Assembly: GCA_965207885.1 (NCBI GenBank)
Contig: OZ242311.1
Location: 1,376,001-1,440,000, forward strand
DNA length: 64,000 nucleotides
Source: Candidatus Latescibacterota bacterium
GTDB taxonomy: Bacteria; Latescibacterota; UBA2968
Direction of reading: 5' to 3'
Within the stretch, counting starts at the first letter, position 1; each line of letters starts with the position of its first letter. Below, piece after piece: positions 3,322-34,730 of this stretch. The notes under the pieces are model-generated. The model saw only the letters and a program-made list of their open reading frames with translations. It made no database searches and was not told the DNA's origin. The position numbers were made by a program, and so were the translations under genes.

Positions 3322-4787
3322 TGGGTATTCTTCCATTTTTCACATTTTGGCGAAGCCCTGTTTACATTATCATCGCCTCTTGTGTAGGCTGGTTTCTCTT
3401 CCAAAACGCGTTGGCTTCCCACGCACATCGGTTCTCTGTATTCTTTTTATTTTTCTTTATTGAACTTTACGGTGGAATTATCGGCGATATTGTAGGAGAG
3501 AACCAGCATCGGATGCTCACCTGGACCCTACCACATTTTCGCAAGCGTCTGATGATCTGGTCAATAATTGTCGGACTATTTTCCGTTGTAGCGTGGACGA
3601 TTGTGCTGACTTATGCACCCCTCAATGCGTCCTGGTCAACGATTTTGCTCCTGAATATGTGCCTCTATTGTTTGGGATTTACCCTTTTTGGGGGGTGGAG
3701 TTTAGATACTAATCGCCCCGGGTTGATTTACAAGTGTCGAGCCCCCCTCTCATTGCTGGTGTTGGCATTAGCCTATTTGTGGCAAGAGGTGCTCGCTTTT
3801 GGAGAGCAACAAAAGTTGGGATTGGCTCTCATCGCATTCGCCATCACAATTGGAACTCATTATTTCGCCTTTAACCAGACAGCTTTTCGCAGTAGGCCAT
3901 TTTCTTTTTTCGTTGGTTCATTCTACTCGGGTTTTGATCCTCAAACCCGGGAGATTCAAAAGAATGCAATGAAGATGCGAAAGACGAGTACCAGGGTATG
4001 GCATCTCGATCACATCGGTACAGGCATCTACAATTGGCTGCGTGCCGGTCAGTATGAAAATTCTGGTCTGGGCGGGTGGAGATGGCCACTTTCCGCGCTC
4101 AGCGCAGCATTGGTAATGGTATTCATTTTTTTTAGCATGGAGACGAATTTCTTAGGATTGTTGGGTCAATCTCCCTACGATTTTGAGACCGTCTCGAAAA
4201 TGATTTATCACCTGATCTTTTATTTTAACCAGTTAGATCCTAAGATCGCCATTAATATATCGTTTTCTGTGTGCTTCGGCATTTATATGTTTATTTTTTT
4301 CCCTGCCTTTTTCTTAAAAAGAGGGTATGTCTATCCGCTTTCTCGCACCCAGCGGATGCGGATTCAGTATTGCGGTTTGCTGGTGCAAAATATTTCTTTT
4401 ATTGCCGCATCTATTCTGGTGTTGGGCGTTCTGGGCATCCTATCTGGAGCAAAGGTTGGGTTTGTGTCTGAAGGAAATATTTCTCTGGGAATACTTCGCG
4501 TTTTTGGATGGGCAGTGGTTCTGATACCGATATTTCAGTGGTTGCAAGTCAAATATGACCTGTATGAATTTCAAAGAATGCGGGGATATCGGTGGAGGTT
4601 CGCTCTTGGGTTACTGCTCATGATTTTGGGTATTGGAATCGGTAGTTTTACCAGTCTGATGCGTATCTGGTATCCCGACCTAGCACTGACCTATGAAGCG
4701 CCGGTTCTTTTGGTCTGTTTTATTCTTTTGCAATGGTTCCTGTTGGCCCGGCTCAAACGGTATTATGCCACACAGGACCTAATTTAG
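3321..4787 (+). CDS. Polytopic membrane protein, probable ABC permease (copy 1)
   Basis: Many hydrophobic segments; TAATG stop/start overlap with the ATPase gene; paralogous to 5764..7248. Confidence 0.75.
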   Translation: MGILPFFTFWRSPVYIIIASCVGWFLFQNALASHAHRFSVFFLFFFIELYGGIIGDIVGENQHRMLTWTLPHFRKRLMIWSIIVGLFSVVAWTIVLTYAPLNASWSTILLLNMCLYCLGFTLFGGWSLDTNRPGLIYKCRAPLSLLVLALAYLWQEVLAFGEQQKLGLALIAFAITIGTHYFAFNQTAFRSRPFSFFVGSFYSGFDPQTREIQKNAMKMRKTSTRVWHLDHIGTGIYNWLRAGQYENSGLGGWRWPLSALSAALVMVFIFFSMETNFLGLLGQSPYDFETVSKMIYHLIFYFNQLDPKIAINISFSVCFGIYMFIFFPAFFLKRGYVYPLSRTQRMRIQYCGLLVQNISFIAASILVLGVLGILSGAKVGFVSEGNISLGILRVFGWAVVLIPIFQWLQVKYDLYEFQRMRGYRWRFALGLLLMILGIGIGSFTSLMRIWYPDLALTYEAPVLLVCFILLQWFLLARLKRYYATQDLI

Positions 4788-4815: not shown

Positions 4816-5654
4816 ATGACGTATCCAAATCTAAAGCAGTCTATTTGGCTGCTGGTATTATTGGTCCTGATTAGCGCAGGTTTGGGGATACCGGTTGCGA
4901 TCCTGGGAACGATTATTGACCAGCCGTTACACAAAAGTCCTTATGCTATCTGGCCAGTGACACTGGTGAGTTTTGTTTTGGTCGTACACTATGTTTTGCG
5001 TCGAACCGATCGAACCTGGGCTTCGTGGTCTGATATCATGCCCATAAAAGCCATTTCGTGGCAATTGCTACTGCCACTTGTGGTATCTATCCTTGGATTG
5101 CTGATCGTCTCTCTGGAATTGGGAAAAGTGATGATGTCTTTGGCCCCAACGCCGAGGGGGTGAAGGATACACTCCGTGGGTTGGTCGGCAAAAAAACCTC
5201 TTATTGGTTGGCCTTTTACGGCGCGGTGATTCAAACACCTATCATAGAAGAGGCACTTTTTAGAGGCATTATTGTAGGTGGTTTATTGGCGTATTGGTCA
5301 AAGTATCAGGCCGCAATTTGGTCGGCAATTTTGTTTGGCATATATCACTTGAACCCCGCGCAATTTCCCGTAGCCTTCATATTGGGGCTTGTATTCGCAT
5401 GGTGGATTATTCAAACGAGATCTTTATTACCTTGTATCCTGGGACACGCATTGAACAATTTTCTGGCTATTACATTAGCACGGTCGGGAATACCGGGCTT
5501 TAAAAATCCAAAGGCTCTGATCTTTCTGCCGTGGTGGGTGGTCGTGTGTGCCGTACTATTGGCCGCGATTGGGTTATGGTGGTTTTATCAAATAGCAAAA
5601 CGCGAAGAAACAGAACATCTTGAAGCGGAAGTTGAACCCGAGAGACATTGTTGA
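4816..5654 (+). pseudogene. CAAX/CPBP (Abi-family) intramembrane metalloprotease, split by a frameshift near 5152-5160
   Basis: N-terminal TM part is in 4816..5163; catalytic EEALFRG, FGIYH and HALNN motifs are in the other frame (to 5654). One extra base at ccgaggggg joins them. Confidence 0.75.
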
Positions 5655-5763
5655 AATTTCTAATGACACTTTTGACCGAGGACGAAAACACAACCGTGAT
5701 TTCGTCACATCATGCACTAAACCTCGACCAGCTATTTCCCATCCTGATACGGGAGGGCGCATA
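5637..5763 (+). repeat. Degenerate, internally deleted copy of the 3' part of the ABC ATPase gene
   Basis: 5637-5710 resembles 2936-3009 (gagacattgttgaaatttctaatgacactt...); 5717-5766 resembles 3274-3323 (aacctcgaccagctatttcccatcctgat..gggagggcgcataatg). Confidence 0.85.
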
Positions 5764-7248
5764 ATGGGTGTTCTGTCGTTTTTCACATTTTTGCGAAGCC
5801 CTGTTCACATTATCATCGCATTTTTTGCATGCCTGTTACTCGCTCATGTCTCCTGGACTGCCGACAGAGATCAGTTCTTTGTGTTTCTCGTATTTCTGCT
5901 ATTCTTCTTTAGTGGATTTTGGGGCTATGCTATCGGAGGTATTGTAGCAGAGAACCAGCATCGGAAGCTCACATGGACCCTGCCGCATTTTCGCAATCGT
6001 CTGATGATCTGGTCGATAATTGTCGGACTGTTTTCCGTAGTGGCGTGGACGATTATGCTGACATTCGCCCCCCTCAATGCGTCCTGGTCAACAATCTTGC
6101 TAATAAACTTGGGCTTTTATTGTTTCGGATTTGTCTGTACAGCGGGTTGGGATTTTGGTGTTTATCATTCTCTGTTGATCCAGGCATGTCAGACCATATT
6201 AATTTTTTTATTTCTCATATTGGCTTTTTTTTGGCAAGAGGTACTCGCTTTTGGAGAGCAACAAAAATTGGGGTTGGCTCTCATCGCATTCGCCATCACA
6301 ATTGCGGCTTATTATTTTTCGTTTAAGCAGACAACTTTTCGGAGAAAGCCTCTTTCCTTGTTATGGTCACTGCACTCGGTTTTTTATCCTCATATCTGGG
6401 AGATGTGGAAAAGGGATGCAATGAAGAGGCGAAAGCCGAGTACCAGGGTATGGCATCTCGATTACATCGGTACAGGCATCTTCAATTGGCTACGTGCGAG
6501 CCGATATGAAAATAGTGGTGGCACGCTATGGCTATGGCTGCTTCCCGGGTTTAGCGCAGTATTGGCAATGGCGTTCTATTCCATTGGCATGATGACGAAT
6601 GGATTCGGGATATTGGATCGGTCTCCCTACGATTTTGAGACTGTATTGATAACGATTTATCACATGATTTTTTATTTCGACCGGTTGGCCCCCAAGATCG
6701 CCATCAATATATCTCTTTCAGCGTTTTTCGGCATTTGGATATATACGGTGTATGTTTGGAGTCATCCTTTTTTCTTAAAAAGAGGGTATGTTTATCCGCT
6801 TTCTCGCACCCAGCGGATGTGGATTCGGTATTGTGGTTTTCTGGTGCAAAATATTTCTTTTTTTATAGTATCTATTCTGGTGTTGGGCGTTCTGGGCATA
6901 CTGGCAGGGGCAAAGGTCGGGTTTATGCATGAAGGGGATATTTCCTTGAGAATACTTTGTGTCTTTGGGTGGACAGTGGTTCTTTGGCCGATGTTTCAGT
7001 GGTTGCAAGTCAAATATCACCTGTATGAATTTCCAAGAACGCGGCGACAAGTATGGGGGATGGCTTTTCTGTTCTTGATCATGATTTTGGCTTGTGGAAT
7101 CGCTGGTTTTGCTGCTCTGATGCGTAATCTGCATCCCGACCTGGCACTGACCTATGAAGCGCCGATCCTTTTCGTCTCTTTTCTTCTCTTGCAATGGCTC
7201 CTATTGTCTCGGCTCAAACGGTATTACGCCACACAGGATCTGATTTAG
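5764..7248 (+). CDS. Polytopic membrane protein, probable ABC permease (copy 2)
   Basis: Shares blocks with copy 1 (ENQHR.LTWTLPHFR, FFLKRGYVYPLSRTQRM, RLKRYYATQDLI). Start ATG 5764 is in the same gggagggcgcataATG context. Confidence 0.8.
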   Translation: MGVLSFFTFLRSPVHIIIAFFACLLLAHVSWTADRDQFFVFLVFLLFFFSGFWGYAIGGIVAENQHRKLTWTLPHFRNRLMIWSIIVGLFSVVAWTIMLTFAPLNASWSTILLINLGFYCFGFVCTAGWDFGVYHSLLIQACQTILIFLFLILAFFWQEVLAFGEQQKLGLALIAFAITIAAYYFSFKQTTFRRKPLSLLWSLHSVFYPHIWEMWKRDAMKRRKPSTRVWHLDYIGTGIFNWLRASRYENSGGTLWLWLLPGFSAVLAMAFYSIGMMTNGFGILDRSPYDFETVLITIYHMIFYFDRLAPKIAINISLSAFFGIWIYTVYVWSHPFFLKRGYVYPLSRTQRMWIRYCGFLVQNISFFIVSILVLGVLGILAGAKVGFMHEGDISLRILCVFGWTVVLWPMFQWLQVKYHLYEFPRTRRQVWGMAFLFLIMILACGIAGFAALMRNLHPDLALTYEAPILFVSFLLLQWLLLSRLKRYYATQDLI

Positions 7249-7512: not shown

Positions 7513-10500
7513 ATGTTTGAAAACGGAACGATTCTCGACAACAAATACCAAATCCAAGCGCACCTGGGAACCGGGGGCATGGGCGAAGTCTATCGGGTGT
7601 TAGACCTGGAGCAAGGCCAGGAGTGCGCGCTCAAAATTTTGAATACCATGGTGGATCAGAAGGCTGTGTACCGCCGTTTTCACAGAGAATTTCAAGTATT
7701 GAACAGATTTCAGCACCCGCGCCTGGTGCGCACATACACCTGGGGCTTTGCCGAGGAGCGTCCCTATTTTACAATGGAATATTTGCCCGGAAAGACATTG
7801 GAAAAAATAATTGCCGATCGTACACATTCAGGGCAATTCCGGACGTCTCACTTTTTCGATTTGATACAACAAATTGCTGAAGGGTTGGCTTATATCCACG
7901 CGCAGGGTGCGGTGCACCGCGATCTCAAACCATCCAATATTATGGTTTTGAAAACAGAAAAGGGGATTGAGACCACGATCCTGGATATGGGACTGGCAAA
8001 ACTCAGGCATCTGCATAGCGTTTCCATTACGCAGACGGGCACAGCCATTGGCACGGCAGAATATATGTCGCCAGAGCAGGGTAAGGGCTTGTGGGTGGAC
8101 CATCGGTCAGATCTATACTCATTGGGCATAATTTTATACGAGATGCTCACGGGCGCACCGCCATTTTCTGGACAAAATCCAATATCCGTTATTATGAAGC
8201 ATATTCGAGAGTCACCGCCACCAATAGGTGAAGCCCATGTCGAGATTCCTACCCAGACGCAAGAAATTGTGCTGAGGTTGCTGGCAAAGGAACCTGTTGA
8301 TCGTTATCAGTCAGCAGAGGAATTGTTGCAGACCTTAAATGATGTGGCACCATTGAAGTTTGTGCTATCCGATGACGAGCAGCGCGATGTGCATAGAAAA
8401 GTGATGCGGCCGCAATTTATCGGGCGCGAATCCGAGATGAAGATGTTGCGCACGATGTTGCAGGATGTACAGGCTGGCGAGCAACGTGTGGTTCTGATCT
8501 CCGGTGAGTCTGGTGTGGGAAAAACGAGACTTATTGAGGAACTATTGGGCGATGCTTTGATCCATGATTTTCTGTGTTTGAAAGGGGCGAGCCAGGAAGA
8601 AGGTGGACAAATATACGGTGCGTTGATTGATGCTTTTCAAGGGAAGGTGGATTTGGTGGCAGAGTTACCCGACCCTGCAGAATCGGACAAGTTTTCTGTT
8701 ATGGAGCGTTGGTTGCAATTATTAAAACGTCTGCGACAGAAACAGCCCATTGTGTTGTGTTTGGAAGATATTCAATGGCTTGATGAATTGACCCTGGAAT
8801 TTTTGCAGTATGTATTGCGCGATCCAGAACCCTGCCCATTTTTGTTATACCTGACCTGTCGATGGTCTAACCTGGAACCCCTTCCAAAGGAAATTGAAAA
8901 ATTTATACACAGCAATGAACTTGCTAAGGCGACCCGGATCCAGTTGGAAAATCTACCCCGTGAAGAGGTGGGATATTTAGCGGCGTCCATGTTGGGTGAA
9001 ATATCCATACCACGAGATGCATTACAATCCCTATTCAGAGAAACAGGTGGACAACCCCTGTTTGTGGTGGAGGCTGTGAGGGCACTGGTGAGTGCCGATG
9101 TGGTTCGACAGAATGTGTCTGGCGATTGGCAGTGGGGAGAATTTCCAGAAACTTTGTTATCCAATGATTTTTCAGAGATTTTGTACAGACGTATAGCTAC
9201 TCTGCCTGCGGTACAACAGCGAGTGCTGGAATACGCGTGTGTTTTTCTGAGTGATTTTCCTTTTGAATTATTGGCTGCGGTTTGGCGCAGCGATGAGTTA
9301 GAATTGCTGGATGTACTGGACGAATTGATTGCAGAAGGGCTTTTGACAGCTTGTGGAGAGGATGAAGATCAATATCGATTTTCGCAGGAATTGTGTCGGC
9401 GGGCAATTTATGATCGCATGCAATATGTAAGACGGCGCCTATTACACCGAGAAATTGGCAATGCTTTGGAAAAGACGGAAGATGCAGAAGAACTGACGGA
9501 AGAATTGGCGGATCATTTTGCGGCGGCGGAAGAACGAGATAAAGCTATAAAATATATGCGCCTATCAGGCAAAAAAGCATTGGAAAAACACGCTTATCGC
9601 CAGGCAAGAATGCGGTTTGAGAGTGTCCGAAAGTGGACACCAGATGACGCTTTTGAATCACCTGCAGATACGATCATTTTTTTATGCGATTACGCAAACG
9701 TTTTACGTTGCTGTAGTCAGCACAATAGCGCACTGAAACTTTTAGACGAGGCAAAGGCGTTATTGCCTGCTGATCGCAAAGATTTAAAGGCGCGTATTTT
9801 AAATGACTTGGGTGAGATTCGTAGCGTAACTCATCATGGAGAAATTGCCGAAGAATATATGCTGAAGGCATTACAACTTTATCGTGAACTTGGTGATCTC
9901 GATGGGGAAATTCAGGCATTGGGAATTTTGGCTTATTTGTGCGACGTTTCTGGCCGGCACGAAGAAGCGATTGCATATATGCGTCGAGAAATAGAGAAAC
10001 GTCGTGTGCTGGAAGATCCGCAACAGAACACTTTTATACAAGGGCGGGAAGGTCAAGCTGCATTAATGGGATTTCGATTTGAGATAGCTAAGGGGTACTT
10101 GGAAACTGCTGTAAAGGCCTTTAAGCAACCTGGTCTGGAGCACCATCGCCTTTGGGCACTTAACTTGCTTCCAAGAGTGTATTTTTTTCTGGGTAATCTC
10201 AACCGGGCGGAAGCCATTTGCTATAAAGTCATTGGTGAGTGGCAGAAGCGAGGCGTTGTGTACTCGGAGGCAGTGAATCTTCTCTGGTTGGGAGAATTGG
10301 CACTGGAACGCGGTGATTTTGTCGAGGCATTGGAATATGCCGAGATCTCGATAGAGCGATTTTTGCAAACACCGCGAAAAGATTATGTCTATCGCGCTTA
10401 TGCGATTGCGGCAACGGCTACCGCGGGAATGGAAGATACAGAAGCAGCACTCGAATGGGGAGAAAAAGCCAGTGAAGGTGTACAGCAAACATCGAGCATG

Positions 10501-12333
10501 TACACGGGCATATTACCCTTGGTGCACTGCGGTATTGGTGTTGCTTTCGCCCAGGCAGGGCGGACTGCTGAGGCTGAAGAGGCTTTTAAGCAGGCGATTG
10601 AATGCCGGAGAGAATCCAAAGGCGATCACTGGGCGCGTGCATTGCTGATGGCAGGGGAGTTTTATCTCCAGCGCGATGATATGACAAGAGCTACGGAGTA
10701 TCTCGAAGCGGCAAAACAGGCGTTTGAAGAAATGGAAATGTCCTATTTTTTGGAGAAAACACAGGTGCTATTAAATCAATTATCTCACGACAAAGATGGC
10801 CGCGGCAATAATGTCGCACCCAGTTCTGAGATTTCAGTCGATACGTTGTCTGTTGATCGCTGGCGCTTGCTTTACGATGTGAGTCGGGAATTGACCACAG
10901 AGCGCGATGTCAAAGTGTTGTTGGATCGAACTTTGGGTAATTTACTGGCTGTTTATCCCGCAGAGCGAGTACTTATTGCAGTGAAAAATGAGACTCCAAA
11001 AAGCTTTGTGGTTGATGCAGTCCGTTACCACAATGTAGAAGCAGATGATGCGGAAGCACTGAGTCGGGGTATTATTCGTCGGGTTATTGAGACAAATGAA
11101 CCCATTTTGAGCGTTGATGCACAGGCAGACGACAGGCTAAATCAATATCAGAGCGTGATGGACTACAATATCCGGTCTGTATTGTGCGTATCCCTATTTC
11201 ATGTTAGCGAAGGTGTAATGGGTGCCCTGTATGTGGATCATCGCAGTATTGGCAACGCATTTTCTGAAGCAGATCAGACGTTTTTGCAGGCATTTGCGAA
11301 TCTGGTGGGGGTGGCACTGGTCAATGCGAAGATGTACGAACAATTAGAAGATAAAGCGCGATATTTGCAGCACCAAGTCGAAAGACGGTACCAGCTTGGC
11401 GATCTGGTCGGGCAAAGCGATGCGATGCAGACCATCTACTATCTTATCGAACGCGCTTCACAAAGTGATATACCCGTGCTTGTGCAAGGCGAAACAGGTA
11501 CGGGCAAAGAATTGGCTGCCCGTGCTATACACTACAATAGCAGACGCAAAGACCAGCCATTTTTGTCTCAAAATTGTGCTGCATTTTCGCCAGAGTTGTT
11601 GCAGAGCGAGTTGTTTGGGTACAAAAAAGGCGCATTTACAGGAGCGACTGAAGATCATAAGGGGATTTTTGAGGCGGCCAATGGGGGTACGGTTTTTTTA
11701 GATGAAATCGCCGATGCCTCGCCACAGTTGCAAAGGAGTTTGTTGCGGGTGTTACAAGAAGGAGAGGTGCGGCGTGTGGGAGAAACAGAGGATCGCGCAG
11801 TGGATGTACGCATTATTGCGGCGACCAATCAAGACTTAAAAAAAGAAGTAGAAAACAGATCCTTCCGTGAAGATTTGTATTACCGGTTGCATGTGATTCA
11901 GATCGATATGCCGCCTTTGCGAAAACGCATTGAAGATGTGCCATTATTGGCCGAACATCTGCTCACCCGAACAAAAGAAGAGTCAAACAAGTCGGTTGGA
12001 GGGCTGACAGTGGGTGCAATCAGGGCGCTCACAAGTTATGACTGGCCGGGCAATGTGCGCGAGTTGGAAAATAAGGTTCGACTTGCGGTTACATTGGCAG
12101 AAGAAGGTGGTGAAATCACGTCCGATTTGTTTTCAGAAGCTGTCGGTCACGCGGTGTCAGGTGCCTCTGTCGAATATCAAAAGCGTTTACGAGATCGTGT
12201 TCAGGAATATGAGAAACGGTTGATTATGGATGCGCTCGAGAAATGCGAGGGCAATATTACGCATACGGCTAAAGAACTGAGGATAACGCGTGCTGGCCTA
12301 CAAAAAAAGATCAATCGTTTGGGGTTGAAATAG
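7513..12333 (+). CDS. Multidomain signalling protein: Ser/Thr kinase - STAND-type AAA ATPase - TPR - GAF - sigma54 AAA+ activator - Fis HTH
   Basis: Kinase GTGGMGEVY, HRDLKPSN, DMG (for DFG), GTAEYMSPEQ; P-loop GESGVGKT with LEDIQW; helical repeats; GAF (RSVLCVSL...LYVD); GETGTGKE, GAFTGA, FLDEI, FREDLYYRL, WPGNVRELEN; C-terminal HTH. Confidence 0.9.
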   Translation: MFENGTILDNKYQIQAHLGTGGMGEVYRVLDLEQGQECALKILNTMVDQKAVYRRFHREFQVLNRFQHPRLVRTYTWGFAEERPYFTMEYLPGKTLEKIIADRTHSGQFRTSHFFDLIQQIAEGLAYIHAQGAVHRDLKPSNIMVLKTEKGIETTILDMGLAKLRHLHSVSITQTGTAIGTAEYMSPEQGKGLWVDHRSDLYSLGIILYEMLTGAPPFSGQNPISVIMKHIRESPPPIGEAHVEIPTQTQEIVLRLLAKEPVDRYQSAEELLQTLNDVAPLKFVLSDDEQRDVHRKVMRPQFIGRESEMKMLRTMLQDVQAGEQRVVLISGESGVGKTRLIEELLGDALIHDFLCLKGASQEEGGQIYGALIDAFQGKVDLVAELPDPAESDKFSVMERWLQLLKRLRQKQPIVLCLEDIQWLDELTLEFLQYVLRDPEPCPFLLYLTCRWSNLEPLPKEIEKFIHSNELAKATRIQLENLPREEVGYLAASMLGEISIPRDALQSLFRETGGQPLFVVEAVRALVSADVVRQNVSGDWQWGEFPETLLSNDFSEILYRRIATLPAVQQRVLEYACVFLSDFPFELLAAVWRSDELELLDVLDELIAEGLLTACGEDEDQYRFSQELCRRAIYDRMQYVRRRLLHREIGNALEKTEDAEELTEELADHFAAAEERDKAIKYMRLSGKKALEKHAYRQARMRFESVRKWTPDDAFESPADTIIFLCDYANVLRCCSQHNSALKLLDEAKALLPADRKDLKARILNDLGEIRSVTHHGEIAEEYMLKALQLYRELGDLDGEIQALGILAYLCDVSGRHEEAIAYMRREIEKRRVLEDPQQNTFIQGREGQAALMGFRFEIAKGYLETAVKAFKQPGLEHHRLWALNLLPRVYFFLGNLNRAEAICYKVIGEWQKRGVVYSEAVNLLWLGELALERGDFVEALEYAEISIERFLQTPRKDYVYRAYAIAATATAGMEDTEAALEWGEKASEGVQQTSSMYTGILPLVHCGIGVAFAQAGRTAEAEEAFKQAIECRRESKGDHWARALLMAGEFYLQRDDMTRATEYLEAAKQAFEEMEMSYFLEKTQVLLNQLSHDKDGRGNNVAPSSEISVDTLSVDRWRLLYDVSRELTTERDVKVLLDRTLGNLLAVYPAERVLIAVKNETPKSFVVDAVRYHNVEADDAEALSRGIIRRVIETNEPILSVDAQADDRLNQYQSVMDYNIRSVLCVSLFHVSEGVMGALYVDHRSIGNAFSEADQTFLQAFANLVGVALVNAKMYEQLEDKARYLQHQVERRYQLGDLVGQSDAMQTIYYLIERASQSDIPVLVQGETGTGKELAARAIHYNSRRKDQPFLSQNCAAFSPELLQSELFGYKKGAFTGATEDHKGIFEAANGGTVFLDEIADASPQLQRSLLRVLQEGEVRRVGETEDRAVDVRIIAATNQDLKKEVENRSFREDLYYRLHVIQIDMPPLRKRIEDVPLLAEHLLTRTKEESNKSVGGLTVGAIRALTSYDWPGNVRELENKVRLAVTLAEEGGEITSDLFSEAVGHAVSGASVEYQKRLRDRVQEYEKRLIMDALEKCEGNITHTAKELRITRAGLQKKINRLGLK

Positions 12334-12344
12334 ACGTTGAACAG

Positions 12345-12467
12345 GTGCATCCAACTGTATGCAGTAGTGCATCCAACTGTATGCACCTATCTATCCTTAT
12401 ATAATTCAAATAGTTATATTGATTTTCTTTAAATAAACGATTTAGAGGTGCATCCAATTGTATGCAC
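12345..12467. promoter_or_regulatory. Three copies of an imperfect palindrome, putative upstream activator (enhancer) sites
   Basis: GTGCATCCAACTGTATGCA at 12345-12363 and 12367-12385 (22-bp period); GTGCATCCAATTGTATGCAC at 12448-12467. Confidence 0.75.
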
Positions 12468-12576
12468 TTTCGCCAGAATTTCCCAAATTTAGCATAAATG
12501 ATTTTTTAATTTTATCTCTTTGCTTTTCAATCACTTGAGCACATTCAAGTGCTTTTTTTTGTGCTGAGACGATTTT

Positions 12577-12592
12577 GGGCACGGATCTTGCA
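12577..12592 (+). promoter_or_regulatory. sigma54 (-24/-12) promoter
   Basis: GGGCACGGATCTTGCA = GG-N10-GC, matching GGCAC-N5-TTGC; lies between the enhancer boxes and a strong RBS. Confidence 0.8.
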
Positions 12593-12647
12593 ATATGGAA
12601 AGGGCAAACAGTTATGGCGCAGGTTTTTTCCATTAAAGGAGGATAAC

Positions 12648-12827
12648 ATGACAACACGACGCAAGTTGACTTTGATTAATGGAGCAATAGATGCGAAAGG
12701 AGATATTCAAATATACCGATTCACGAATAGCCTTGAAATTGGGGGATGTCCATCTGGTTCGCCGGTTGTTCCTCCTGTCCCCTTTCCCGATGATGACGAT
12801 TGGGACGATTTTGAACAGGCTGAGTGA
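12648..12827 (+). CDS. Putative RiPP precursor peptide, 59 aa (ranthipeptide-like leader, single Cys, Pro-rich then acidic core)
   Basis: AAAGGAGG RBS before ATG 12648; MTTRRKLTLINGAIDAKGDIQIYRFTNSLEIGGCPSGSPVVPPVPFPDDDDWDDFEQAE; immediately upstream of an RRE-radical SAM-SPASM gene. Confidence 0.75.
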   Translation: MTTRRKLTLINGAIDAKGDIQIYRFTNSLEIGGCPSGSPVVPPVPFPDDDDWDDFEQAE

Positions 12828-12850
12828 TTTAATTTTAGGGAGTGTTTGAC

Positions 12851-14287
12851 ATGCTGTGCATTCAGAGATGCGAAATGCATCTTTTTCATACTGAAGAGCA
12901 AAAACAGCCGATTGTCTATCAGGTTGAGACTGGTCTGTTTTTTGCACTGGATACTCTTTTTCAGTCGATTTTAGAGTGCTGTGAGGGGATGTCTGCTTCA
13001 CAGGTTGTCCAGAGGTTGACCAATCAATACGAGGCAGAAGAAATTGTCGAGGCCATTGAGGAACTGTCTCAAGTGGGTTTGATTTCGGATGGTGCTTTGC
13101 CCCTAATATCCAATGTGCCGACGACAGAAGGGGTGGCAGCCTGTGGGGTTTCGCAGACAGATCGTTTGCAGGTGTCCTTGCACGTTTCGCATACGTGCAA
13201 TATTCAATGTGCGTATTGCTTTGCCCACGGTGGAGATTATGGCGGTAAGGCCATGCTGATGCAAATAGATGTTGCCGAGCAAGCCATACGCTGGATTGTC
13301 ACCGAGGCTCAGGTATTCGGACGGTGCCAGATTGATTTTTTTGGCGGAGAGCCGCTTCTGAATTTTCCATTGATGCAGGAGCTTGTTCCGTTTGCCAAAT
13401 CCCTATCAGCGCGATTGGGGGTGCAGGTTGGTTTTGGCATTGTGACCAATGGCACGTTGTTGACTGATGAGATGAGGCAATTTTTGGTTGATGAAAATTT
13501 TCAGATTAAGGTCAGCCTGGATGGGGGGCGTAAAACACAGGACCGCATTCGCAAGTTTCACAATGGTTCTGGGACTTATGATGTTGTGGCAAAGAATGTG
13601 GAGAAACTGACTGCTGAGGTGCCTGAGCGCGTGTATTTGCAGGCTGTTATGACAGCTTATGATATGGACGAGGATCAGATTGCCGATGCGTTGCGTTCTC
13701 TGGGTACTGAAAACGCGCTTGTTGGTCCGGCTGTTGTCTCTCCCGATGCGCCTTATGCGATTGGGGAAGAACACATACCCGTTTTGAAGGAACAAATTCA
13801 CAAGCGGAGTAGGCGTGCGCTCAAAGCTATTTTAAGCGGTGAAGAGAGTGAAGATAAAGAGTTTGATCCGCGGATTCAAAAACTTTTGACGCGCCAAAAA
13901 TCCTGTCATGGGTGTCTGGGTGGTAAGCAGTATCTGGCTATTGCAGCAGATGGGTCGATTTATTTTTGCTCGAGTTTGGCCGATGCGCCCGAGTTTAAGA
14001 TGGGTGATGTGTTTGCGGGTATTGATCGCGAAAAGCAGCAGCATTTTGACGCGCAGTTCAATGTGAATAATCGCCCTGAGTGCAAGACGTGCTGGGCGCG
14101 CAACTTATGTGGTGGCGGGTGTCTTTGGGAGGCGCGGACAACAACGGGTGACCCAATGTATCCAAATCCAGTTTCTTGTGAACAGACGCGTTATCGCTAT
14201 GAATTGGCGATGGAGATGTGTATGGAGATTGCAGAAGCGGATGCGTCTTTGTTACAGCGACGATATGATCTGGAAGTGGTATCATAA
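12851..14287 (+). CDS. Radical SAM/SPASM peptide maturase with N-terminal RRE-like domain (CteB/PapB/QhpD-like)
   Basis: CNIQCAYC (CX3CX2C), FFGGEPLL, VTNGTLL, SLDG; SPASM CHGCLGG...FC...CKTCWARNLCGGGC...C; N-terminal ~80-aa strand/helix region ending IEELSQVGLI. AGGGAG precedes ATG 12851. Confidence 0.88.
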   Translation: MLCIQRCEMHLFHTEEQKQPIVYQVETGLFFALDTLFQSILECCEGMSASQVVQRLTNQYEAEEIVEAIEELSQVGLISDGALPLISNVPTTEGVAACGVSQTDRLQVSLHVSHTCNIQCAYCFAHGGDYGGKAMLMQIDVAEQAIRWIVTEAQVFGRCQIDFFGGEPLLNFPLMQELVPFAKSLSARLGVQVGFGIVTNGTLLTDEMRQFLVDENFQIKVSLDGGRKTQDRIRKFHNGSGTYDVVAKNVEKLTAEVPERVYLQAVMTAYDMDEDQIADALRSLGTENALVGPAVVSPDAPYAIGEEHIPVLKEQIHKRSRRALKAILSGEESEDKEFDPRIQKLLTRQKSCHGCLGGKQYLAIAADGSIYFCSSLADAPEFKMGDVFAGIDREKQQHFDAQFNVNNRPECKTCWARNLCGGGCLWEARTTTGDPMYPNPVSCEQTRYRYELAMEMCMEIAEADASLLQRRYDLEVVS

Positions 14288-14323
14288 GCAAAGAAGTTCT
14301 GATGAAAAACTGGTATCCAATAC

Positions 14324-14376
14324 GGCATCCAAATAGGGATTAACACTCTGTTAGATGCCATTTATTTTGTTTCTTT
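14324..14376 (+). terminator. Possible intrinsic terminator after the radical SAM gene
   Basis: Imperfect stem GGCATCCAAATAGGG / CTCTGTTAGATGCC followed by ATTTATTTTGTTTCTTT. Confidence 0.4.
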
Positions 14377-14404
14377 GGGTGGGAGTCTCGACAGATTGTT
14401 GGTG

Positions 14405-15397
14405 ATGGGAGAAATATATCAATCAAAAAAATCCGGCCTCAATAAATGGCCGCTCATTGGACAGCATTCCTCACTCTTAGACGTGCAAAAGCGCGCGTAC
14501 CGCGTGGCAAATAGCGAATTGCCCGTCAACATCAGTGGAGAAACTGGCACGGGTAAGGAATTGCTCGCCCGTTATGTTCACGGCATTAGCCACCGCAACA
14601 GGGGACCATTTGTAACCGTTGACTGCGGTCTGCTCTCTTCTGAAATGTCGCGCAGCGAGTTATTTGGACATGTTCGAGGTGCTTTTACTGGCGCCAGCCA
14701 AACGCGCATCGGACTGGTTGAATCTGCCCAAGGCGGTACGCTATTCCTCGATGAAGTAGGCGAATTGCCTGCCAACCTTCAGTTGCAATTGCTACGCCTG
14801 GTACAGGAACAGGAATTTCGTCGCGTAGGCGAAGCATCCATGCGCCGGTCCAACGTGCGCCTGATCACTGCGACACACTGTAACTTGAAAAAAATGGTGC
14901 GAAAAGGGACTTTCCGAGAAGATCTCTATTACCGCTTAACTGTCGTACCTCTACATTTGCCACCCTTGCGGAAGCGACTGAGCGACTTGCCTCTTTTAAT
15001 CACGCATTTTTGCAAAAGTATGAAAGAATACAATCGCGCATTTTCCCCCGAAGTAATTCAAAGGATGTCGCATTACGCCTGGCCCGGCAATGTTCGGGAA
15101 CTACAACACGAAGTCGCCCGATTGATGGTCATGAGCGAAGGTAAAATTATCCGCGTATCCGATCTGCACCCTCGCATTCGAGGATCCAAAGCCGAGGTCG
15201 ATGTATTTGACCTCCCGTTTAAAGAAGCCAGACAACTGGCGAACAGCCGGTTTATGCGGGAGTATCTCGACAGAGCCTTGAAGCGAACACAGGGCAATGT
15301 AACCCAGGCAGCGCAACAATGCGGGATTGGCCGACAGTATTTCCAATTGCGCATGTCTGAATACGGTCTAAAGTCGGCATCTTACAAACAGAAATAA
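14405..15397 (+). CDS. sigma54-dependent activator (AAA+ and Fis HTH) with no N-terminal sensory domain
   Basis: LIGQHS near the N-terminus, GETGTGKE, GAFTGA, FLDEV, FREDLYYRL, WPGNVREL, GNVTQAAQQCGIGRQ HTH. Confidence 0.88.
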   Translation: MGEIYQSKKSGLNKWPLIGQHSSLLDVQKRAYRVANSELPVNISGETGTGKELLARYVHGISHRNRGPFVTVDCGLLSSEMSRSELFGHVRGAFTGASQTRIGLVESAQGGTLFLDEVGELPANLQLQLLRLVQEQEFRRVGEASMRRSNVRLITATHCNLKKMVRKGTFREDLYYRLTVVPLHLPPLRKRLSDLPLLITHFCKSMKEYNRAFSPEVIQRMSHYAWPGNVRELQHEVARLMVMSEGKIIRVSDLHPRIRGSKAEVDVFDLPFKEARQLANSRFMREYLDRALKRTQGNVTQAAQQCGIGRQYFQLRMSEYGLKSASYKQK

Positions 15398-15413
15398 TAC
15401 CTCACGGTGTACT

Positions 15414-15449
15414 AAAAAAACGTCAATGGAAAAATCCATTGACGTTTTT
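15414..15449. terminator. Intrinsic terminator, potentially bidirectional
   Basis: Perfect stem CGTCAATGGA-AAAA-TCCATTGACG flanked by an A-run and a T-run. Confidence 0.8.
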
Positions 15450-15476
15450 CTTTGCAGGGTGTTTCTTGAGCGTATC

Positions 15477-18400
15477 ATGCAATACATCGCCGACATACAC
15501 CTGCACTCGCGTTTTGCCCGCGCAACCAGCAAAACCCTGAACCCCGAAAACCTGTATCGGTGGAGCCTCATCAAAGGCCTGACAGTAGTAGGCACCGGAG
15601 ATTTCACCCATCCGGTATGGTTTGACGAACTGCGCGATCAACTCGAACCCGCCGAAGAAGGGCTATATCAACTGCGATCAGACCTCAGGCGAGGTATAGA
15701 CGCCGAGTTGCCACAAGCCTGTCGCGGACAAATGCGGTTTGTGCTCTCGGTCGAAATCAGTCTCATATACAAAAAGAACGACAAAACCAGAAAAATACAT
15801 CACGTCGTCACAATGCCGAGTTTTGACGCTGCGGCGCGATTAAATGCCCGACTCGGCGCAATAGGCAACCTGAAATCCGACGGACGCCCCATTCTTGGCC
15901 TGGACAGCCGGGACCTGGTAGAGATCTGTCTGGAAGCCTGTGACGAGGTACTCTTCATACCCGCGCACATCTGGACCCCTCATTTTGCTGTCCTGGGCGC
16001 GAGTTCCGGGTTTGACACCCTGGAAGAATGTTTTGAAGACATGCTCCCCCACATCTTCGCCGTAGAAACCGGCCTATCCTCCGACCCACCGATGAACTGG
16101 CGCCTATCCATGCTGGACAACTACGCAATCGTCTCCAATTCAGACGCGCATTCCCCACAAAAACTCGCCCGCGAAGCCACCTGCTTTAACACAGACCTAT
16201 CATTCCGCGGAATGTATAACGCATTAAAAGACCGCGACCCAACGCGCTTTACGGGCACCCTGGAATTCTATCCCGAAGAAGGCAAATATCACTTTGACGG
16301 ACACAGAAAATGCGACATATGCTGGAAACCCGTACAAACCCTCGACGCAGACGAAATCTGCCCGGTATGTGGCCGCAAATTGACCGTTGGCGTACTCCAC
16401 CGCGTTGAAAAACTCGCAGACCGCGCAGAAGGCGACCGCCCCGACGTGGTAATGCCCTTTGAAAACCTGATCCCACTGCCGGAAATCATCGGCTCAGTCC
16501 TCCAGGTGGGACCCACCAGCAAGCGCGTACAAACCGTGTACGAACAAATGCTATCAACACACGGAGCAGAATTGAAAATCTTGCGCGAACTGCCCATCGA
16601 AGAAATCGCCAAAACAGGAGACTTCCTCATCGCCGAAGGCATTCGACGCATGCGCGAAGGGGAAGTTCACATAGACCCGGGATACGACGGCGTGTACGGA
16701 AAAATTCAAGTCTTCTCCGACGAAGACCGCGCACGCCTGAGCGGGCAGGAAACGCTGTTTCACATACCAGCCGGGGAGCCTTCGAAAGAGAAAGCAGAGA
16801 ACGCGAGCCTGGACAAGAGCACAGAAAACTCAATAGCCAAAGATTCTTCTTTCACACTTCCCACTTCACTCTTCCCACTTCTCGACCCCCACCAGCAAGC
16901 AGCCGTAACAACGGAAAAAGGTCCCGTCATCGTAACAGCGGGACCCGGCACCGGAAAAACCCGGGTCCTCACCCATCGCGTAATCGACTTGATCCAAAAC
17001 CGCGGCGTATCACCCGCTTCTGTGATGGCCGTAACATTCACCAATCGCGCCGCAACTGAAATGTGGGAACGGATCGTATCCCTATCCTCAGGAGGCGAAG
17101 AACTGGTCCCCATGCGCGTGGGCACATTCCACCGCCTATCACTGGACCTCCTGCGAGAATACGCCCCCGAGCGAATGGGCGCAATAGCTGACCGAGGAGA
17201 AGCCCGCACCGTCTTACAGGAAGCAATCGCCGACATCGACACCGAAACATCGGTCGATGACGCCCTCTCCCAAATCTCGCTATGCAAAGCTACAGGACAG
17301 GAAATACCCGACATCACCGACACCGAACTCCAAACCATTTACACCAATTATCAACATCGCCTCACCACTTATGGCCTGATGGACTTTGACGACATCTTAC
17401 TCATACTCCACGACGTACTCTCCGGTGACATTTTACAAACAATCCAGGCGCGATTTACCCACGTACTCGTCGATGAATTTCAGGACGTCAACGCCGTACA
17501 GTACGCACTGATTCAAAAACTGTCCGGAGATGGATCGGGCCTCTTCGTCATCGGCGATCCCGATCAAGCCATCTACGGTTTTCGGGGCGCGAGCGCGGGA
17601 TATTTCGCGCAATTAAAAGCGGATTATCCCGGATCAAACGAAGTAATCCTGCAGCACACATATCGCTCCACCCCACAGATCATCTCCGCAGCATCCAGCC
17701 TGCTTCGCGGACGATCGTATGTCCCCGTGCGAGAAAATGGCCCAAATCTGAGAGCCTTATCCACACCGGGCGAAACCGGCGAAGGCATCGCCATCGTAGA
17801 AGAAATCTCCCGAATGGTCGGCGGTGCAGACTTATTGCAAGCCAACGAAGAAGGCAAACGCAGCCTGGACGACTTCGCCGTATTATTCCGTACCGGACGA
17901 CAAGCAGACGCCCTGGAAACGTGCTTCTTACAGGCCGGGATCCCCTACCGCGTCGTCGGGCAGAAAAGCTATCTGGACGCAGCTTCGGTACAGCACGCCC
18001 TATCGTTTTTTAAGTGCGTCCTGAGAGATATTTCCAGTGCCCCAACCACCAGAGATATAATCGACCTCCTCTCCATCCCCGCATTTGACCCTGGCAGAGA
18101 AGCGCGCGCAACAATGCGTCGTCAGGCTCAAAACACCGCGCTATCTGACACTGTACAGGAAAAATTGGACGCCGCGATGGAAGCCGTAGATCGCTTCCGC
18201 AATGAAACATCTCACCTATCGCCTTCCGAACGCATAGCAAAATGGGCAGAAGAATTTGCGACATCAGACGACATCGACATCGAACGACTGAGCCTGTTGG
18301 CTCAAGGCGTGGATTCCATCGCAGAGCTATTGGAAATCATCACCCTGGGACAGGATGGCGACTTTGTGCGTCGTGGAAAAATTGCGCGGCCCGAAGCCGT

Positions 18401-18707
18401 CACACTCATGACCTTGCATGCGTCCAAGGGCCTGGAATTCCCCGTGGTATTTATCTGTGGGGTTGAGGAAGGATTAATCCCGCACGCCAATGCGGATATC
18501 GAAGAAGAGAAACGCCTATTTTTCGTCGGCATAACCCGCGGACAAGACGAAGTGATCTTGACCCGCGCCCGAAGCCGCAGGCGATTTGGCGAACGCATCG
18601 CGCCCAAAATATCGCGCTTTGTAGCCGACATCCCCGAAGAAGTGATCGACTTTGTCGATCTGCGAACCGAAAGACGCAAACCCGCCGAACAACTATCCTT
18701 ATTTTAA
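15477..18707 (+). CDS. Endonuclease Q-like PHP domain fused to a UvrD/Rep (SF1A) helicase
   Basis: ADIHLHSRF, GTGDFTHP, PAHIWTP, ETGLSSD, NSDAHS, GKYHFDGHRKC, CPVCG, PGYDGVYG; then AGPGTGKT, VDEFQD, GDPDQAIYGFRGA, TLHASKGLEF, FFVGITR. Ends QLSLF. Confidence 0.85.
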   Translation: MQYIADIHLHSRFARATSKTLNPENLYRWSLIKGLTVVGTGDFTHPVWFDELRDQLEPAEEGLYQLRSDLRRGIDAELPQACRGQMRFVLSVEISLIYKKNDKTRKIHHVVTMPSFDAAARLNARLGAIGNLKSDGRPILGLDSRDLVEICLEACDEVLFIPAHIWTPHFAVLGASSGFDTLEECFEDMLPHIFAVETGLSSDPPMNWRLSMLDNYAIVSNSDAHSPQKLAREATCFNTDLSFRGMYNALKDRDPTRFTGTLEFYPEEGKYHFDGHRKCDICWKPVQTLDADEICPVCGRKLTVGVLHRVEKLADRAEGDRPDVVMPFENLIPLPEIIGSVLQVGPTSKRVQTVYEQMLSTHGAELKILRELPIEEIAKTGDFLIAEGIRRMREGEVHIDPGYDGVYGKIQVFSDEDRARLSGQETLFHIPAGEPSKEKAENASLDKSTENSIAKDSSFTLPTSLFPLLDPHQQAAVTTEKGPVIVTAGPGTGKTRVLTHRVIDLIQNRGVSPASVMAVTFTNRAATEMWERIVSLSSGGEELVPMRVGTFHRLSLDLLREYAPERMGAIADRGEARTVLQEAIADIDTETSVDDALSQISLCKATGQEIPDITDTELQTIYTNYQHRLTTYGLMDFDDILLILHDVLSGDILQTIQARFTHVLVDEFQDVNAVQYALIQKLSGDGSGLFVIGDPDQAIYGFRGASAGYFAQLKADYPGSNEVILQHTYRSTPQIISAASSLLRGRSYVPVRENGPNLRALSTPGETGEGIAIVEEISRMVGGADLLQANEEGKRSLDDFAVLFRTGRQADALETCFLQAGIPYRVVGQKSYLDAASVQHALSFFKCVLRDISSAPTTRDIIDLLSIPAFDPGREARATMRRQAQNTALSDTVQEKLDAAMEAVDRFRNETSHLSPSERIAKWAEEFATSDDIDIERLSLLAQGVDSIAELLEIITLGQDGDFVRRGKIARPEAVTLMTLHASKGLEFPVVFICGVEEGLIPHANADIEEEKRLFFVGITRGQDEVILTRARSRRRFGERIAPKISRFVADIPEEVIDFVDLRTERRKPAEQLSLF

Positions 18708-34711: not shown

Positions 34712-34730
34712 AAGCAATTTCTGTGCCAAA
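34712..34730 (-). promoter_or_regulatory. sigma54 (-24/-12) promoter of the permease gene
   Basis: Minus strand TTTGGCACAGAAATTGCTT, a consensus TGGCAC-N5-TTGC match about 100 nt upstream of the start. Confidence 0.8.

What the first reader, a model, noticed from the sequence alone, without database searches (positions are those of the whole stretch)
7513..15397. Candidate new system: sigma54-driven single-cysteine RiPP locus under a kinase-STAND-TPR-GAF enhancer-binding protein
Seen: one co-oriented block with a 1606-aa kinase/STAND/TPR/GAF/sigma54 activator, three palindromic boxes, a -24/-12 promoter, a strong-RBS 59-aa ORF, an RRE-radical SAM-SPASM gene and a second activator, closed by a strong terminator at 15414. 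Known: RRE-rSAM-SPASM enzymes such as CteB, PapB and QhpD install thioether cross-links in an adjacent precursor, and sigma54 promoters need an enhancer-bound AAA+ activator. Inference: a large signal-integrating protein switches on production of a modified peptide, possibly a signalling molecule that feeds back on the TPR sensor. I do not know of a described RiPP family with this arrangement.
Basis: partly seen in the sequence, partly recalled or inferred. Interest (0 to 1): 0.88.

Follow-up and report, generated by a model that had tools for sequence, protein, structure and literature searches.

The report
Sigma-54 switched single-cysteine peptide cassette
A giant sensor-regulator protein sits next to a sigma-54 promoter that drives a small one-cysteine peptide and the radical SAM enzyme likely to cross-link it, and the bacterium and its relatives carry two or three differently wired copies of this unit.

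Summary
Window 7513-15397 carries a 1606-aa kinase/STAND/TPR/GAF/sigma-54 activator, three exact palindromic boxes, a -24/-12 promoter, a strong-RBS 59-aa one-Cys ORF, a CteB-like RRE-rSAM-SPASM gene, a short second activator and a strong hairpin terminator.

Comparison changes the picture.
- The conserved unit is activator + boxes + hairpin/T-run + sigma-54 promoter + peptide + rSAM. It was present in 33 of 33 close loci, 4 of 4 loci with about 50% rSAM identity, and 3 of 4 more distant loci.
- The second activator flanks only one orthologous locus (13 of 14 A-type loci, 0 of 23 others). It is probably a neighbour.
- Most other copies carry a methyltransferase-like fourth gene that this window lacks.
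- Genomes hold 1-3 copies. Their boxes differ and track the activator's HTH helix.
- All 33 peptides are unique. The six residues after the invariant Cys vary almost neutrally (dN/dS 0.95) and co-vary with TPR residues about 765-873.

The enzyme falls below every curated family cut-off and the peptide matches no family. I read it as a new family inside the known thioether (ranthipeptide-like) class, under an undescribed regulatory arrangement.

The parts
7513..12333 (+). Large enhancer-binding protein: Ser/Thr kinase, STAND NTPase (AAA_16), TPR sensor region, GAF, sigma-54 AAA+ domain, Fis-type HTH
   Evidence: Pfam domains. The kinase HRD/DxG/Lys motifs, NOD Walker A/B and GAFTGA are kept in 24-27 of 27 aligned relatives. 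It lies directly upstream of the peptide in 33 of 33 close loci.
12345..12363 (.). Upstream activator box 1 (imperfect palindrome, half-sites TGCAT/ATGCA)
   Evidence: The position is conserved in 14 A-type loci.
12367..12385 (.). Upstream activator box 2
12448..12466 (.). Upstream activator box 3, about 146 nt before the predicted transcript start
   Evidence: An AT-rich stretch lies between boxes 2 and 3. I read it by eye as IHF-like; the IHF consensus is recalled.
12532..12559 (+). Hairpin plus T8: intrinsic terminator of the activator gene, placed between the boxes and the promoter
   Evidence: Listed by the scan. It is weak here (-7.8 kcal/mol, z = -1.1). A hairpin plus T-run with different stem sequences stands at the same place in 8 of 8 loci examined, distant ones included.
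12577..12592 (+). Sigma-54 (-24/-12) promoter
   Evidence: Conserved across paralogues and in the 50% group. rpoN is present once in the genome.
12648..12827 (+). 59-aa precursor peptide: conserved N-terminal leader (KLxLxNG), one invariant Cys (residue 34), six hypervariable residues, VPxxPFP, acidic aromatic tail
   Evidence: Whole-gene dN/dS is 0.33, so it is coding. No Pfam or NCBIfam match.
12842..14287 (+). RRE-radical SAM-SPASM peptide maturase (likely start 12851)
   Evidence: Radical_SAM E 1.7e-16; SPASM and PqqD matches just under cut-off. CteB (5wgg) aligns at E 4e-62 over residues 23-457 with the cluster cysteines kept. Best NCBIfam models are all below cut-off.
14375..15397 (+). 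Second, sensor-less sigma-54 activator: neighbour of this locus, not a core part
   Evidence: Relatives of 88% identity or more lie downstream in 13 of 14 A-type loci, with insertions of about 1-6.7 kb in four of them, and in 0 of 23 B/C/D/E loci.
15416..15449 (+). Strong hairpin terminator after the second activator

Best explanation
This is a self-contained, sigma-54-dependent peptide-modification cassette.

Proposed mechanism:
1. The 1606-aa protein binds, through its C-terminal HTH, three palindromic boxes that start 12 nt after its own stop codon.
2. When its sensor modules (kinase, STAND NTPase, TPR, GAF) allow, its AAA+ domain opens the -24/-12 promoter about 150-250 nt downstream.
3. 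A terminator between boxes and promoter insulates the target from read-through.
4. The transcript encodes a 59-aa precursor and a CteB-like RRE-rSAM-SPASM enzyme.
5. The enzyme recognises the conserved N-terminal leader and most likely links the single invariant Cys to a downstream residue by one thioether. That would close a ring displaying six hypervariable residues.

Shown: the parts, their linkage, their conservation, and the pairing of box type with HTH type.
Inferred: the DNA binding, sigma-54 dependence in vivo, the substrate relation and the chemistry.

The second activator downstream is a locus-specific neighbour, possibly co-transcribed, not a core part.
For: Linkage:
- Activator, peptide and rSAM lie together in 33 of 33 close loci (rSAM 88-100% identical), in 4 of 4 loci at 49-52% rSAM and 41% activator identity, and in L037, L076 and L078 at 42-44%.
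- None of the 17 Bacillota-type SCIFF-like loci (27-34%) has the activator.

Promoter and genome:
- The promoter is conserved and rpoN is present.

Box and regulator pairing:
- Box half-sites differ by paralogue type: A TGCAT, B and C TGTAT, D TGTAA.
- Of the 40 activator columns most informative about box type, 11 lie in the last 60 residues (1547-1598), where the HTH_8 domain lies.

Enzyme:
- It aligns full length to CteB with the CxxxCxxC and SPASM cysteines kept.
- Top NCBIfam models are thioether maturases: SCIFF 267 bits, QhpD 264 bits, PapB 229 bits.

Peptide:
- All 33 peptide ORFs found in 33 loci are intact and unique.
- The Cys is invariant; leader dN/dS is 0.26.

Expression:
- Contigs from sponge RNA libraries (4 runs, 2 studies) cover the peptide's 3' part and the rSAM gene. 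One 170-nt contig with 2 mismatches bridges the two.
Against: - No protease or exporter is conserved beside the cassette, so maturation and destination are unknown.
- The enzyme is under every curated cut-off and the precursor has only one Cys, unlike SCIFF, PapA or QhpC. The cross-link partner, and even the chemistry, could therefore differ.
- Acidic residues that could serve as acceptors are absent from the 50%-group peptides.
- The RNA evidence is contigs only: DNA carry-over is not excluded and no transcript start is seen.
- Several activator genes are interrupted in MAGs (6 of 36 frames are shorter than 1400 aa although the contig holds the whole gene). This could be decay or assembly error.
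- The promoter match alone is not above chance in the window.
Confidence: 0.7

Rival explanations
1. Cognate signal-receptor circuit. The modified (or unmodified) peptide is the ligand of its own activator's TPR sensor. Each cassette is then a positive-feedback or kin-specific signalling loop, and the paralogues are mutually insulated channels: their own peptide loop, TPR pocket, HTH and boxes. This extends rather than contradicts the best explanation.
For: - Peptide-core distance correlates best with activator residues 801-900 (r = 0.33, p = 0.0005). The partial Mantel test controlling for the rest of the protein gives r = 0.31, p = 0.0007, on 24 loci.
- GAF, HTH and residues 900-1130 give r of about 0, although they lie physically between that TPR segment and the peptide gene.
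- Of the 40 activator columns most informative about peptide-core class, 21 lie at 765-873.
- All 6 peptides with an xPY core share one TPR variant, and both peptides with a Pro-x-Pro core share another, across different box types.
- The six residues after Cys evolve at dN/dS 0.95.
- TPR domains are peptide receptors in RRNPP regulators (recalled knowledge).
Against:
- The sample is 24 related loci, the core classes were defined after seeing the data, and Mantel tests overstate significance among kin.
- Variable columns carry more information by construction.
- One gene-conversion tract swapping HTH plus boxes would give the same cross-cutting pattern without selection.
- The TPR hot-spot itself shows dN/dS of only 0.31.
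- There is no conserved exporter, importer or leader protease.
Confidence: 0.25
2. Inducible conflict or defence module. The STAND-TPR part senses an invader or damage signal, as in Avs/NLR-like systems, and switches on a modified peptide that acts as an intracellular or secreted effector.
For: - STAND NTPases with TPR sensors and multi-copy, diversifying loci are typical of conflict systems.
- A paper on such systems notes a radical SAM enzyme that 'likely modifies a peptide-effector' beside other NTPase regulators (PMC7159879, passages).
- Copies sit next to an IS4/5 transposase in one case.
Against: - The variable TPR segment tracks the cassette's own peptide. A sensor of foreign proteins need not do so.
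- The flanking genes examined beside the three own copies showed no defence-type domain. The PADLOC library was not searched.
- The A-type locus is stably syntenic across 13 genomes.
Confidence: 0.1
3. The second activator belongs to the system. The large activator turns on peptide, enzyme and the short sensor-less activator, which then drives further sigma-54 promoters in a cascade.
For: - Only 88 nt separate the rSAM stop from the second activator, and the scan lists no terminator there.
- The strong terminator comes only after the second activator.
- The second activator keeps GAFTGA and Walker A.
- It is syntenic in 13 of 14 A-type loci.
Against: - It is absent from all 23 B, C, D and E loci, which work without it.
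- Insertions of about 1-6.7 kb separate it from the rSAM gene in L011, L013, L014 and L029.
- The A-type loci are orthologous, so synteny may only reflect descent.
Confidence: 0.15
4. The small ORF is not the enzyme's substrate: it is a regulatory small protein or an upstream ORF, and the rSAM enzyme acts on something else.
For: - There is one Cys only and no match to any precursor family.
- No mass data exist.
Against: - The ORF lies 14-24 nt before the enzyme gene in this window. A small one- to three-Cys ORF with the same leader motif precedes the enzyme in every locus with enough flank, down to 42% enzyme identity.
- The enzyme keeps an N-terminal RRE-like domain aligned to that of CteB.
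Confidence: 0.07

Closest known systems
CteB / SCIFF maturases (ranthipeptide class; PDB 5wgg)
   Same: Full-length alignment at E 4e-62 covering the RRE-like N-terminus, the CxxxCxxC core and the SPASM cysteines. The precursor gene lies directly upstream. As in SCIFF loci, no transporter is linked.
   Different: The score of 267 bits is below the 425-bit cut-off of TIGR03974. The precursor has one Cys instead of six and no sequence likeness. It is sigma-54 controlled by a dedicated giant activator. It occurs in Latescibacterota rather than Bacillota.
QhpD/QhpC and PapB/PapA (Cys to Asp/Glu thioethers)
   Same: Comparable NCBIfam scores (264 and 229 bits). The precursor has a conserved acidic run that could supply an acceptor, as Asp/Glu do in those systems (chemistry recalled).
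   Different: Below cut-offs of 453 and 340 bits. No amine dehydrogenase genes nearby. No repeated CxxxD motif. The acidic run lies 14 or more residues from the Cys and is missing in the 50% group.
TOMM system kinase/cyclase fusion protein (NCBIfam TIGR03903)
   Same: Ser/Thr kinase + AAA_16 STAND + TPR protein, named by NCBIfam for its link to a RiPP system. The activator's N-terminal part matches at 288 bits in three stretches.
   Different: Below the 706-bit cut-off. The output here is GAF + sigma-54 AAA+ + HTH acting on DNA next door, not a nucleotide cyclase.
NifA/NorR-type GAF-sigma-54 activators
   Same: The C-terminal 490 residues match NifA at 387 bits and NorR at 357 bits, with GAF, GAFTGA and a Fis-type HTH.
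   Different: Below cut-offs. Preceded by 1100 residues of kinase, STAND and TPR. The same six-domain architecture was seen in 6 of 6 distant cluster representatives tested (31-42% identity). The architecture itself is therefore widespread, yet I found no description of it in print.
RRNPP peptide receptors and MalT-type STAND activators
   Same: A TPR sensor coupled to a transcription output. In RRNPP the ligand is a short peptide encoded next door, and receptor and peptide diversify together (recalled).
   Different: No sequence membership was tested. Here the output is a sigma-54 AAA+ motor, the peptide is probably rSAM-modified, and no Sec signal or Opp link is seen.

Membership tests
SCIFF / TIGR03974 thioether maturase system | Enzyme scores above the curated cut-off (425 bits) | tested here: not met
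   266.7 bits
SCIFF / TIGR03974 thioether maturase system | Precursor with six Cys in about 45 residues | tested here: not met
   One Cys in 26 of 33 peptides and two in 7 of 33. No NCBIfam match.
rSAM-SPASM RiPP maturase (general) | CxxxCxxC radical SAM core plus C-terminal SPASM cysteines for auxiliary clusters | tested here: met
   Radical_SAM E 1.7e-16. SPASM scores 20.8 bits, just under its 21.5-bit cut-off. The cysteines align with those of CteB.
rSAM-SPASM RiPP maturase (general) | N-terminal RiPP recognition element (PqqD-like) | tested here: inconclusive
   PqqD scores 19.8 bits against a 23.4-bit cut-off. Residues 23-100 align to the N-terminal domain of CteB. No structure could be predicted.
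Ranthipeptide (non-alpha-carbon thioether) | A Cys sulfur to beta/gamma-carbon link in the product | not testable with these tools
   Needs mass spectrometry and NMR of the product.
QhpD (TIGR03906) | Score above 453 bits and neighbouring quinohemoprotein amine dehydrogenase subunits | tested here: not met
   263.8 bits. The neighbours are an unknown 542-aa protein, activators and a helicase.
PapB (NF047865) | Score above 340 bits and a precursor with repeated Cys-x3-Asp/Glu | tested here: not met
   229.1 bits. There is a single Cys, and Asp at +4 occurs in only a few peptides.
Sigma-54 dependent operon | GG-N10-GC promoter, an activator with GAFTGA and Walker motifs, rpoN in the genome, and upstream activator sites | tested here: met
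   Activity in vivo was not tested.
TOMM kinase/cyclase regulator (TIGR03903) | Score above 705.75 bits, cyclase output domain | tested here: not met
   288.2 bits over the kinase, STAND and TPR parts only. No cyclase domain.

The most novel reading that the evidence does not exclude
Each cassette is a private peptide-signalling channel. The rSAM-closed ring displays a six-residue hypervariable loop that is read by a matching, equally variable TPR pocket (residues about 765-873) of the cassette's own STAND activator. The activator then assembles its sigma-54 AAA+ motor on cassette-specific boxes. Two or three mutually orthogonal channels per genome would then form a RiPP-based, sigma-54-output recognition or quorum system in uncultivated sponge-associated bacteria. 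Its logic would be that of RRNPP systems, built from unrelated parts.
Probability: 0.25. Interest if true: 0.9.

Novelty: new variant of a known kind. Interest (0 to 1): 0.7.

Why it matters
- Ranthipeptide-type products are widespread, but their functions are mostly unknown; the sponge MAG paper says so (passages).
- Here the genetics offer a handle: a dedicated sensor-regulator, a defined promoter and operator, and natural sets of diverged but parallel copies whose peptide loop, TPR segment, HTH and boxes can be swapped.
- It would give a first function for the widespread kinase-STAND-TPR-GAF-sigma-54 architecture. It would also test whether STAND oligomerisation can drive a sigma-54 AAA+ motor.
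- The orthogonal activator/box pairs are ready-made parts for synthetic circuits.

Tried and rejected
- **Complex prediction.** I prepared a run of the TPR region (alignment A2) against the peptide (alignment A1).
- **Structure prediction.** The run for the methyltransferase-like fourth gene (A3) was switched off.
- **Metagenome scan.** The scan for more loci gave only 3 relatives above 40% identity, all on short contigs. The co-variation sample therefore stayed at 24 loci.
- **Distant regulators.** Searches with P0131 and P0127 gave one usable locus, L067.
- **Exporter.** Two C39-peptidase ABC transporter genes exist in the genome. One lies 7.5 kb from copy B, behind an IS element and M16 peptidase genes. 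This set recurs only in L021 (M16 pair) and not in the other B loci, so I rejected it as a cassette part.
- **RNA families.** Rfam found nothing in 12200-15600 at E of 1 or below.
- **RNA-library cover.** The lack of cover over 12304-12571 and the depth differences between genes are not used as evidence. These are contigs of relatives laid at 88% likeness.
- **Positive selection in the TPR hot-spot.** A crude test gave dN/dS of 0.31, so none was shown.
- **Literature.** Five searches found no description of a sigma-54 or STAND-kinase controlled rSAM peptide locus.
Full report
**What is in the window**

- The 1606-aa ORF (7513-12333) carries Pkinase, AAA_16 (STAND), MalT-like TPR/TPR_12, GAF, Sigma54_activat and HTH_8 domains.
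- Twelve bases after its stop codon begin two adjacent copies of a 19-nt imperfect palindrome, and a third copy lies 80 nt further on. The three exact matches compare with 0.16 expected by chance.
- A hairpin with a T8 run follows (12532-12559).
- Next comes a -24/-12 element (12577-12592), then a strong RBS and a 59-aa ORF with a single Cys.
- The 481-aa ORF after it has a radical SAM core and near-threshold SPASM and PqqD matches.
- That ORF aligns over residues 23-457 with the thioether-forming maturase CteB at E 4e-62, with the cluster cysteines in register.
- Its best NCBIfam models are SCIFF maturase, QhpD, the nif11-type maturase and PapB, all far below their cut-offs. The peptide matches nothing.
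- The 340-aa second activator has only the AAA+ domain with GAFTGA and an HTH.
- A strong hairpin (-21.2 kcal/mol, z = -5.9) closes the block.
- The genome has one rpoN gene.

**What is conserved elsewhere**

A scan of one genome per species returned 57 loci, and the own genome has three copies. I grouped loci by box sequence into types A to D, with E for the group at about 50% rSAM identity.

- In 33 of 33 close loci (rSAM 88-100% identical; record titles name Latescibacterota MAGs), the large activator ends about 300-330 nt before a small ORF that directly precedes the rSAM gene.
- The same holds in 4 of 4 loci with 49-52% rSAM and 41% activator identity.
- It also holds in L037, L076 and L078 at 42-44%. 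L077 has the peptide and the enzyme but no activator within 8 kb.
- The 17 loci at 27-34% identity are Bacillota-type SCIFF-like genes without the activator.
- In the phylum survey, 25 of 168 genomes have the enzyme at E of 1e-80 or below. They fall in three families (18 of 30, 4 of 22 and 2 of 3; 0 in the others), with 1-3 copies each.

**What is not conserved**

- Relatives of the second activator, the helicase after it and the unknown 542-aa gene upstream occur only at the A-type locus. The second activator is found in 13 of 14 A-type loci; the fourteenth contig ends too early.
- In four of those loci, 1-6.7 kb is inserted between the rSAM gene and the second activator. None of the 23 B, C, D or E loci has it.
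- I therefore treat it as a neighbour that may be co-transcribed here (88-nt gap, no listed terminator).
- Conversely, 15 loci (all 6 C, 4 of 5 D, 4 of 8 B and 1 A) carry a roughly 300-aa gene after the rSAM gene. In three D loci it starts 16 nt after the rSAM stop.
- That gene matches Methyltransf_24 only weakly (E 0.003-0.007, below cut-off). The window's copy of the cassette lacks it.
- No protease or exporter is conserved.

**The control region**

The layout is the same in all close loci: stop codon, two boxes, an AT-rich stretch, a third box, hairpin plus T-run, the -24/-12 element 60-82 nt before the start codon, then the RBS.

- A hairpin plus T-run with quite different stem sequences stands at that place in 8 of 8 loci examined. 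These include the 42-52% relatives and an unrelated MAG (L067) whose activator is only about 33% identical.
- That pattern argues for a real terminator that insulates the sigma-54 promoter from the activator's own transcript.
- The boxes differ by copy: TGCAT...ATGCA in A, TGTAT-type in B and C, TGTAA...TTACA in D, and TGATAA...TTATCA in L037.
- The predicted recognition helix differs in step. Of the 40 activator columns most informative about box type, 11 lie in the last 60 residues (1547-1598).
- C and D never occur in one genome and share upstream genes, so they look like alleles of one locus. Every genome has A plus C or D, and sometimes B.
- Elsewhere the activators of different types are about as alike as those of one type (0.84 against 0.87 identity). 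That suggests exchange between copies.

**The peptide**

- All 33 peptides are different.
- Invariant positions are a leader motif (K6, L7, L9, N11, G12), Cys34, V41, P42, F46, P47 and D49.
- dN/dS by region: leader 0.26, Pro-rich block 0.12, acidic tail 0.22, and the six residues after the Cys 0.95.
- The 50% group and the more distant loci keep the leader motif and a Cys followed by a Pro/aromatic-rich stretch, but not the acidic tail.
- By analogy with CteB, PapB and QhpD (chemistry recalled), I infer one thioether from Cys34 to a downstream residue. That would close a ring around the variable loop. Neither the acceptor residue nor the ring size can be read from sequence.

**Co-variation**

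- Across 24 loci with complete activators, peptide-core distance correlates best with activator residues 801-900, the most variable stretch. Plain Mantel gives r = 0.33, p = 0.0005. The partial Mantel test controlling for the rest of the protein gives r = 0.31, p = 0.0007.
- GAF, HTH and residues 900-1130 give r of about 0, although they lie between that TPR segment and the peptide gene.
- Of the 40 columns most informative about peptide-core class, 21 lie at 765-873. The pattern is visible by eye and cuts across box types.
- This fits a peptide read by its own TPR sensor.
- The caveats are real. The sample is small and related. The classes were chosen after seeing the data. A single conversion tract over HTH plus boxes could give the same pattern. 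The TPR hot-spot has dN/dS of 0.31.
- The binding prediction could not be run.

**Expression**

Contigs from four sponge RNA libraries of two studies cover the peptide's 3' part and the rSAM gene.

- One 170-nt contig with 2 mismatches bridges the two genes.
- Another runs from a paralogue's rSAM end into the fourth gene.
- This shows presence in RNA libraries, not level, strand or transcript start.

**Comparison and novelty**

- The enzyme-peptide pair belongs in function to the rSAM-SPASM thioether class. A paper reports that antiSMASH labels clusters in sponge Latescibacterota MAGs as ranthipeptide, with unknown function (PMC12993501, passages).
- It fails the membership tests for SCIFF, QhpD and PapB.
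- The six-domain activator architecture is widespread: 6 of 6 distant representatives tested have it. In L067 it again precedes boxes, a sigma-54 promoter and a small ORF.
- Five literature searches found no description of this arrangement. The library's limits apply.

**Verdict**

This is a real, conserved cassette. It is a new enzyme and precursor family within a known class, under a new kind of dedicated control. Multi-copy orthogonal wiring and a hypervariable loop make the signalling reading worth testing.

Noticed in passing
L063:9193-10098 (-), L073:6123-7013 (+), and 13 further loci: A conserved gene of about 300 aa follows the rSAM gene in most B, C and D cassettes. It is 78-86% identical among copies and matches Methyltransf_24 only below cut-off. 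The window's cassette lacks it, and the copy beside cassette B is truncated next to an IS4/5 transposase.
   Followed up: partly
L073 (G000:C1:212000-222000), about 5550-7016: A PAS histidine kinase and an NtrC-type response regulator are followed by the same hairpin plus sigma-54 promoter module as in the cassette. That module here drives a 67-aa ORF and a third copy of the methyltransferase-like gene. A similar small ORF is inserted between peptide and rSAM in L006 and L018.
   Followed up: partly
L074 (G000:C1:5792000-5801000), minus strand, about 6350-6900: An orphan copy of the A-type control region: three A-type boxes, hairpin, promoter and RBS. The peptide start is decayed (a stop after five codons) and there is no activator beside it. 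Three secreted-looking genes (253, 208 and 852 aa) follow, so this may be a second target of the window's activator.
   Followed up: partly
L010, L018, L006, L019, L034 between the rSAM gene and the 300-aa gene: An extra ORF of about 75 aa (starting MACR...) sits between the rSAM gene and the methyltransferase-like gene in some B and C cassettes. It is deleted or decayed in others.
   Followed up: no
L037, L076, L078, L077: In the most distant relatives, a second rSAM-SPASM paralogue of 24-30% identity lies further downstream of the first one; in L037 and L077 it follows within about 200 nt.
   Followed up: no
window 3321-4787 and 5620-7248 (+): Two paralogous genes (63% identical, 488 and 542 aa) lie upstream of the activator. 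The 542-aa product matches no Pfam or NCBIfam family; the 488-aa one was not searched. They are syntenic only with the A-type locus.
   Followed up: no
window 15426-18707 (+): A UvrD/PcrA-like helicase is fused to an N-terminal TIGR00375-like region. The listed ATG lies inside the terminator hairpin, and relatives align from residue 17, so the true start is probably later.
   Followed up: no
L067:5440-6020: In an unrelated MAG, an activator of the same architecture (about 33% identical) is followed by two TGTAAA-N6-TTTACA boxes, a hairpin/T-run, a TGGCAT-N5-TTGCT promoter and an 80-aa ORF with a signal-peptide-like start. A different radical SAM gene lies about 1.5 kb further on.
   Followed up: partly
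L008, L012, L019, L023, L024, L029: The activator reading frame is interrupted in these six MAG loci. This may be gene decay or assembly error; it was not resolved.
   Followed up: no
window 34713-34728 (-): A perfect match to TGGCAC-N5-TTGCW, possibly another sigma-54 promoter. Its downstream gene was not examined.
   Followed up: no
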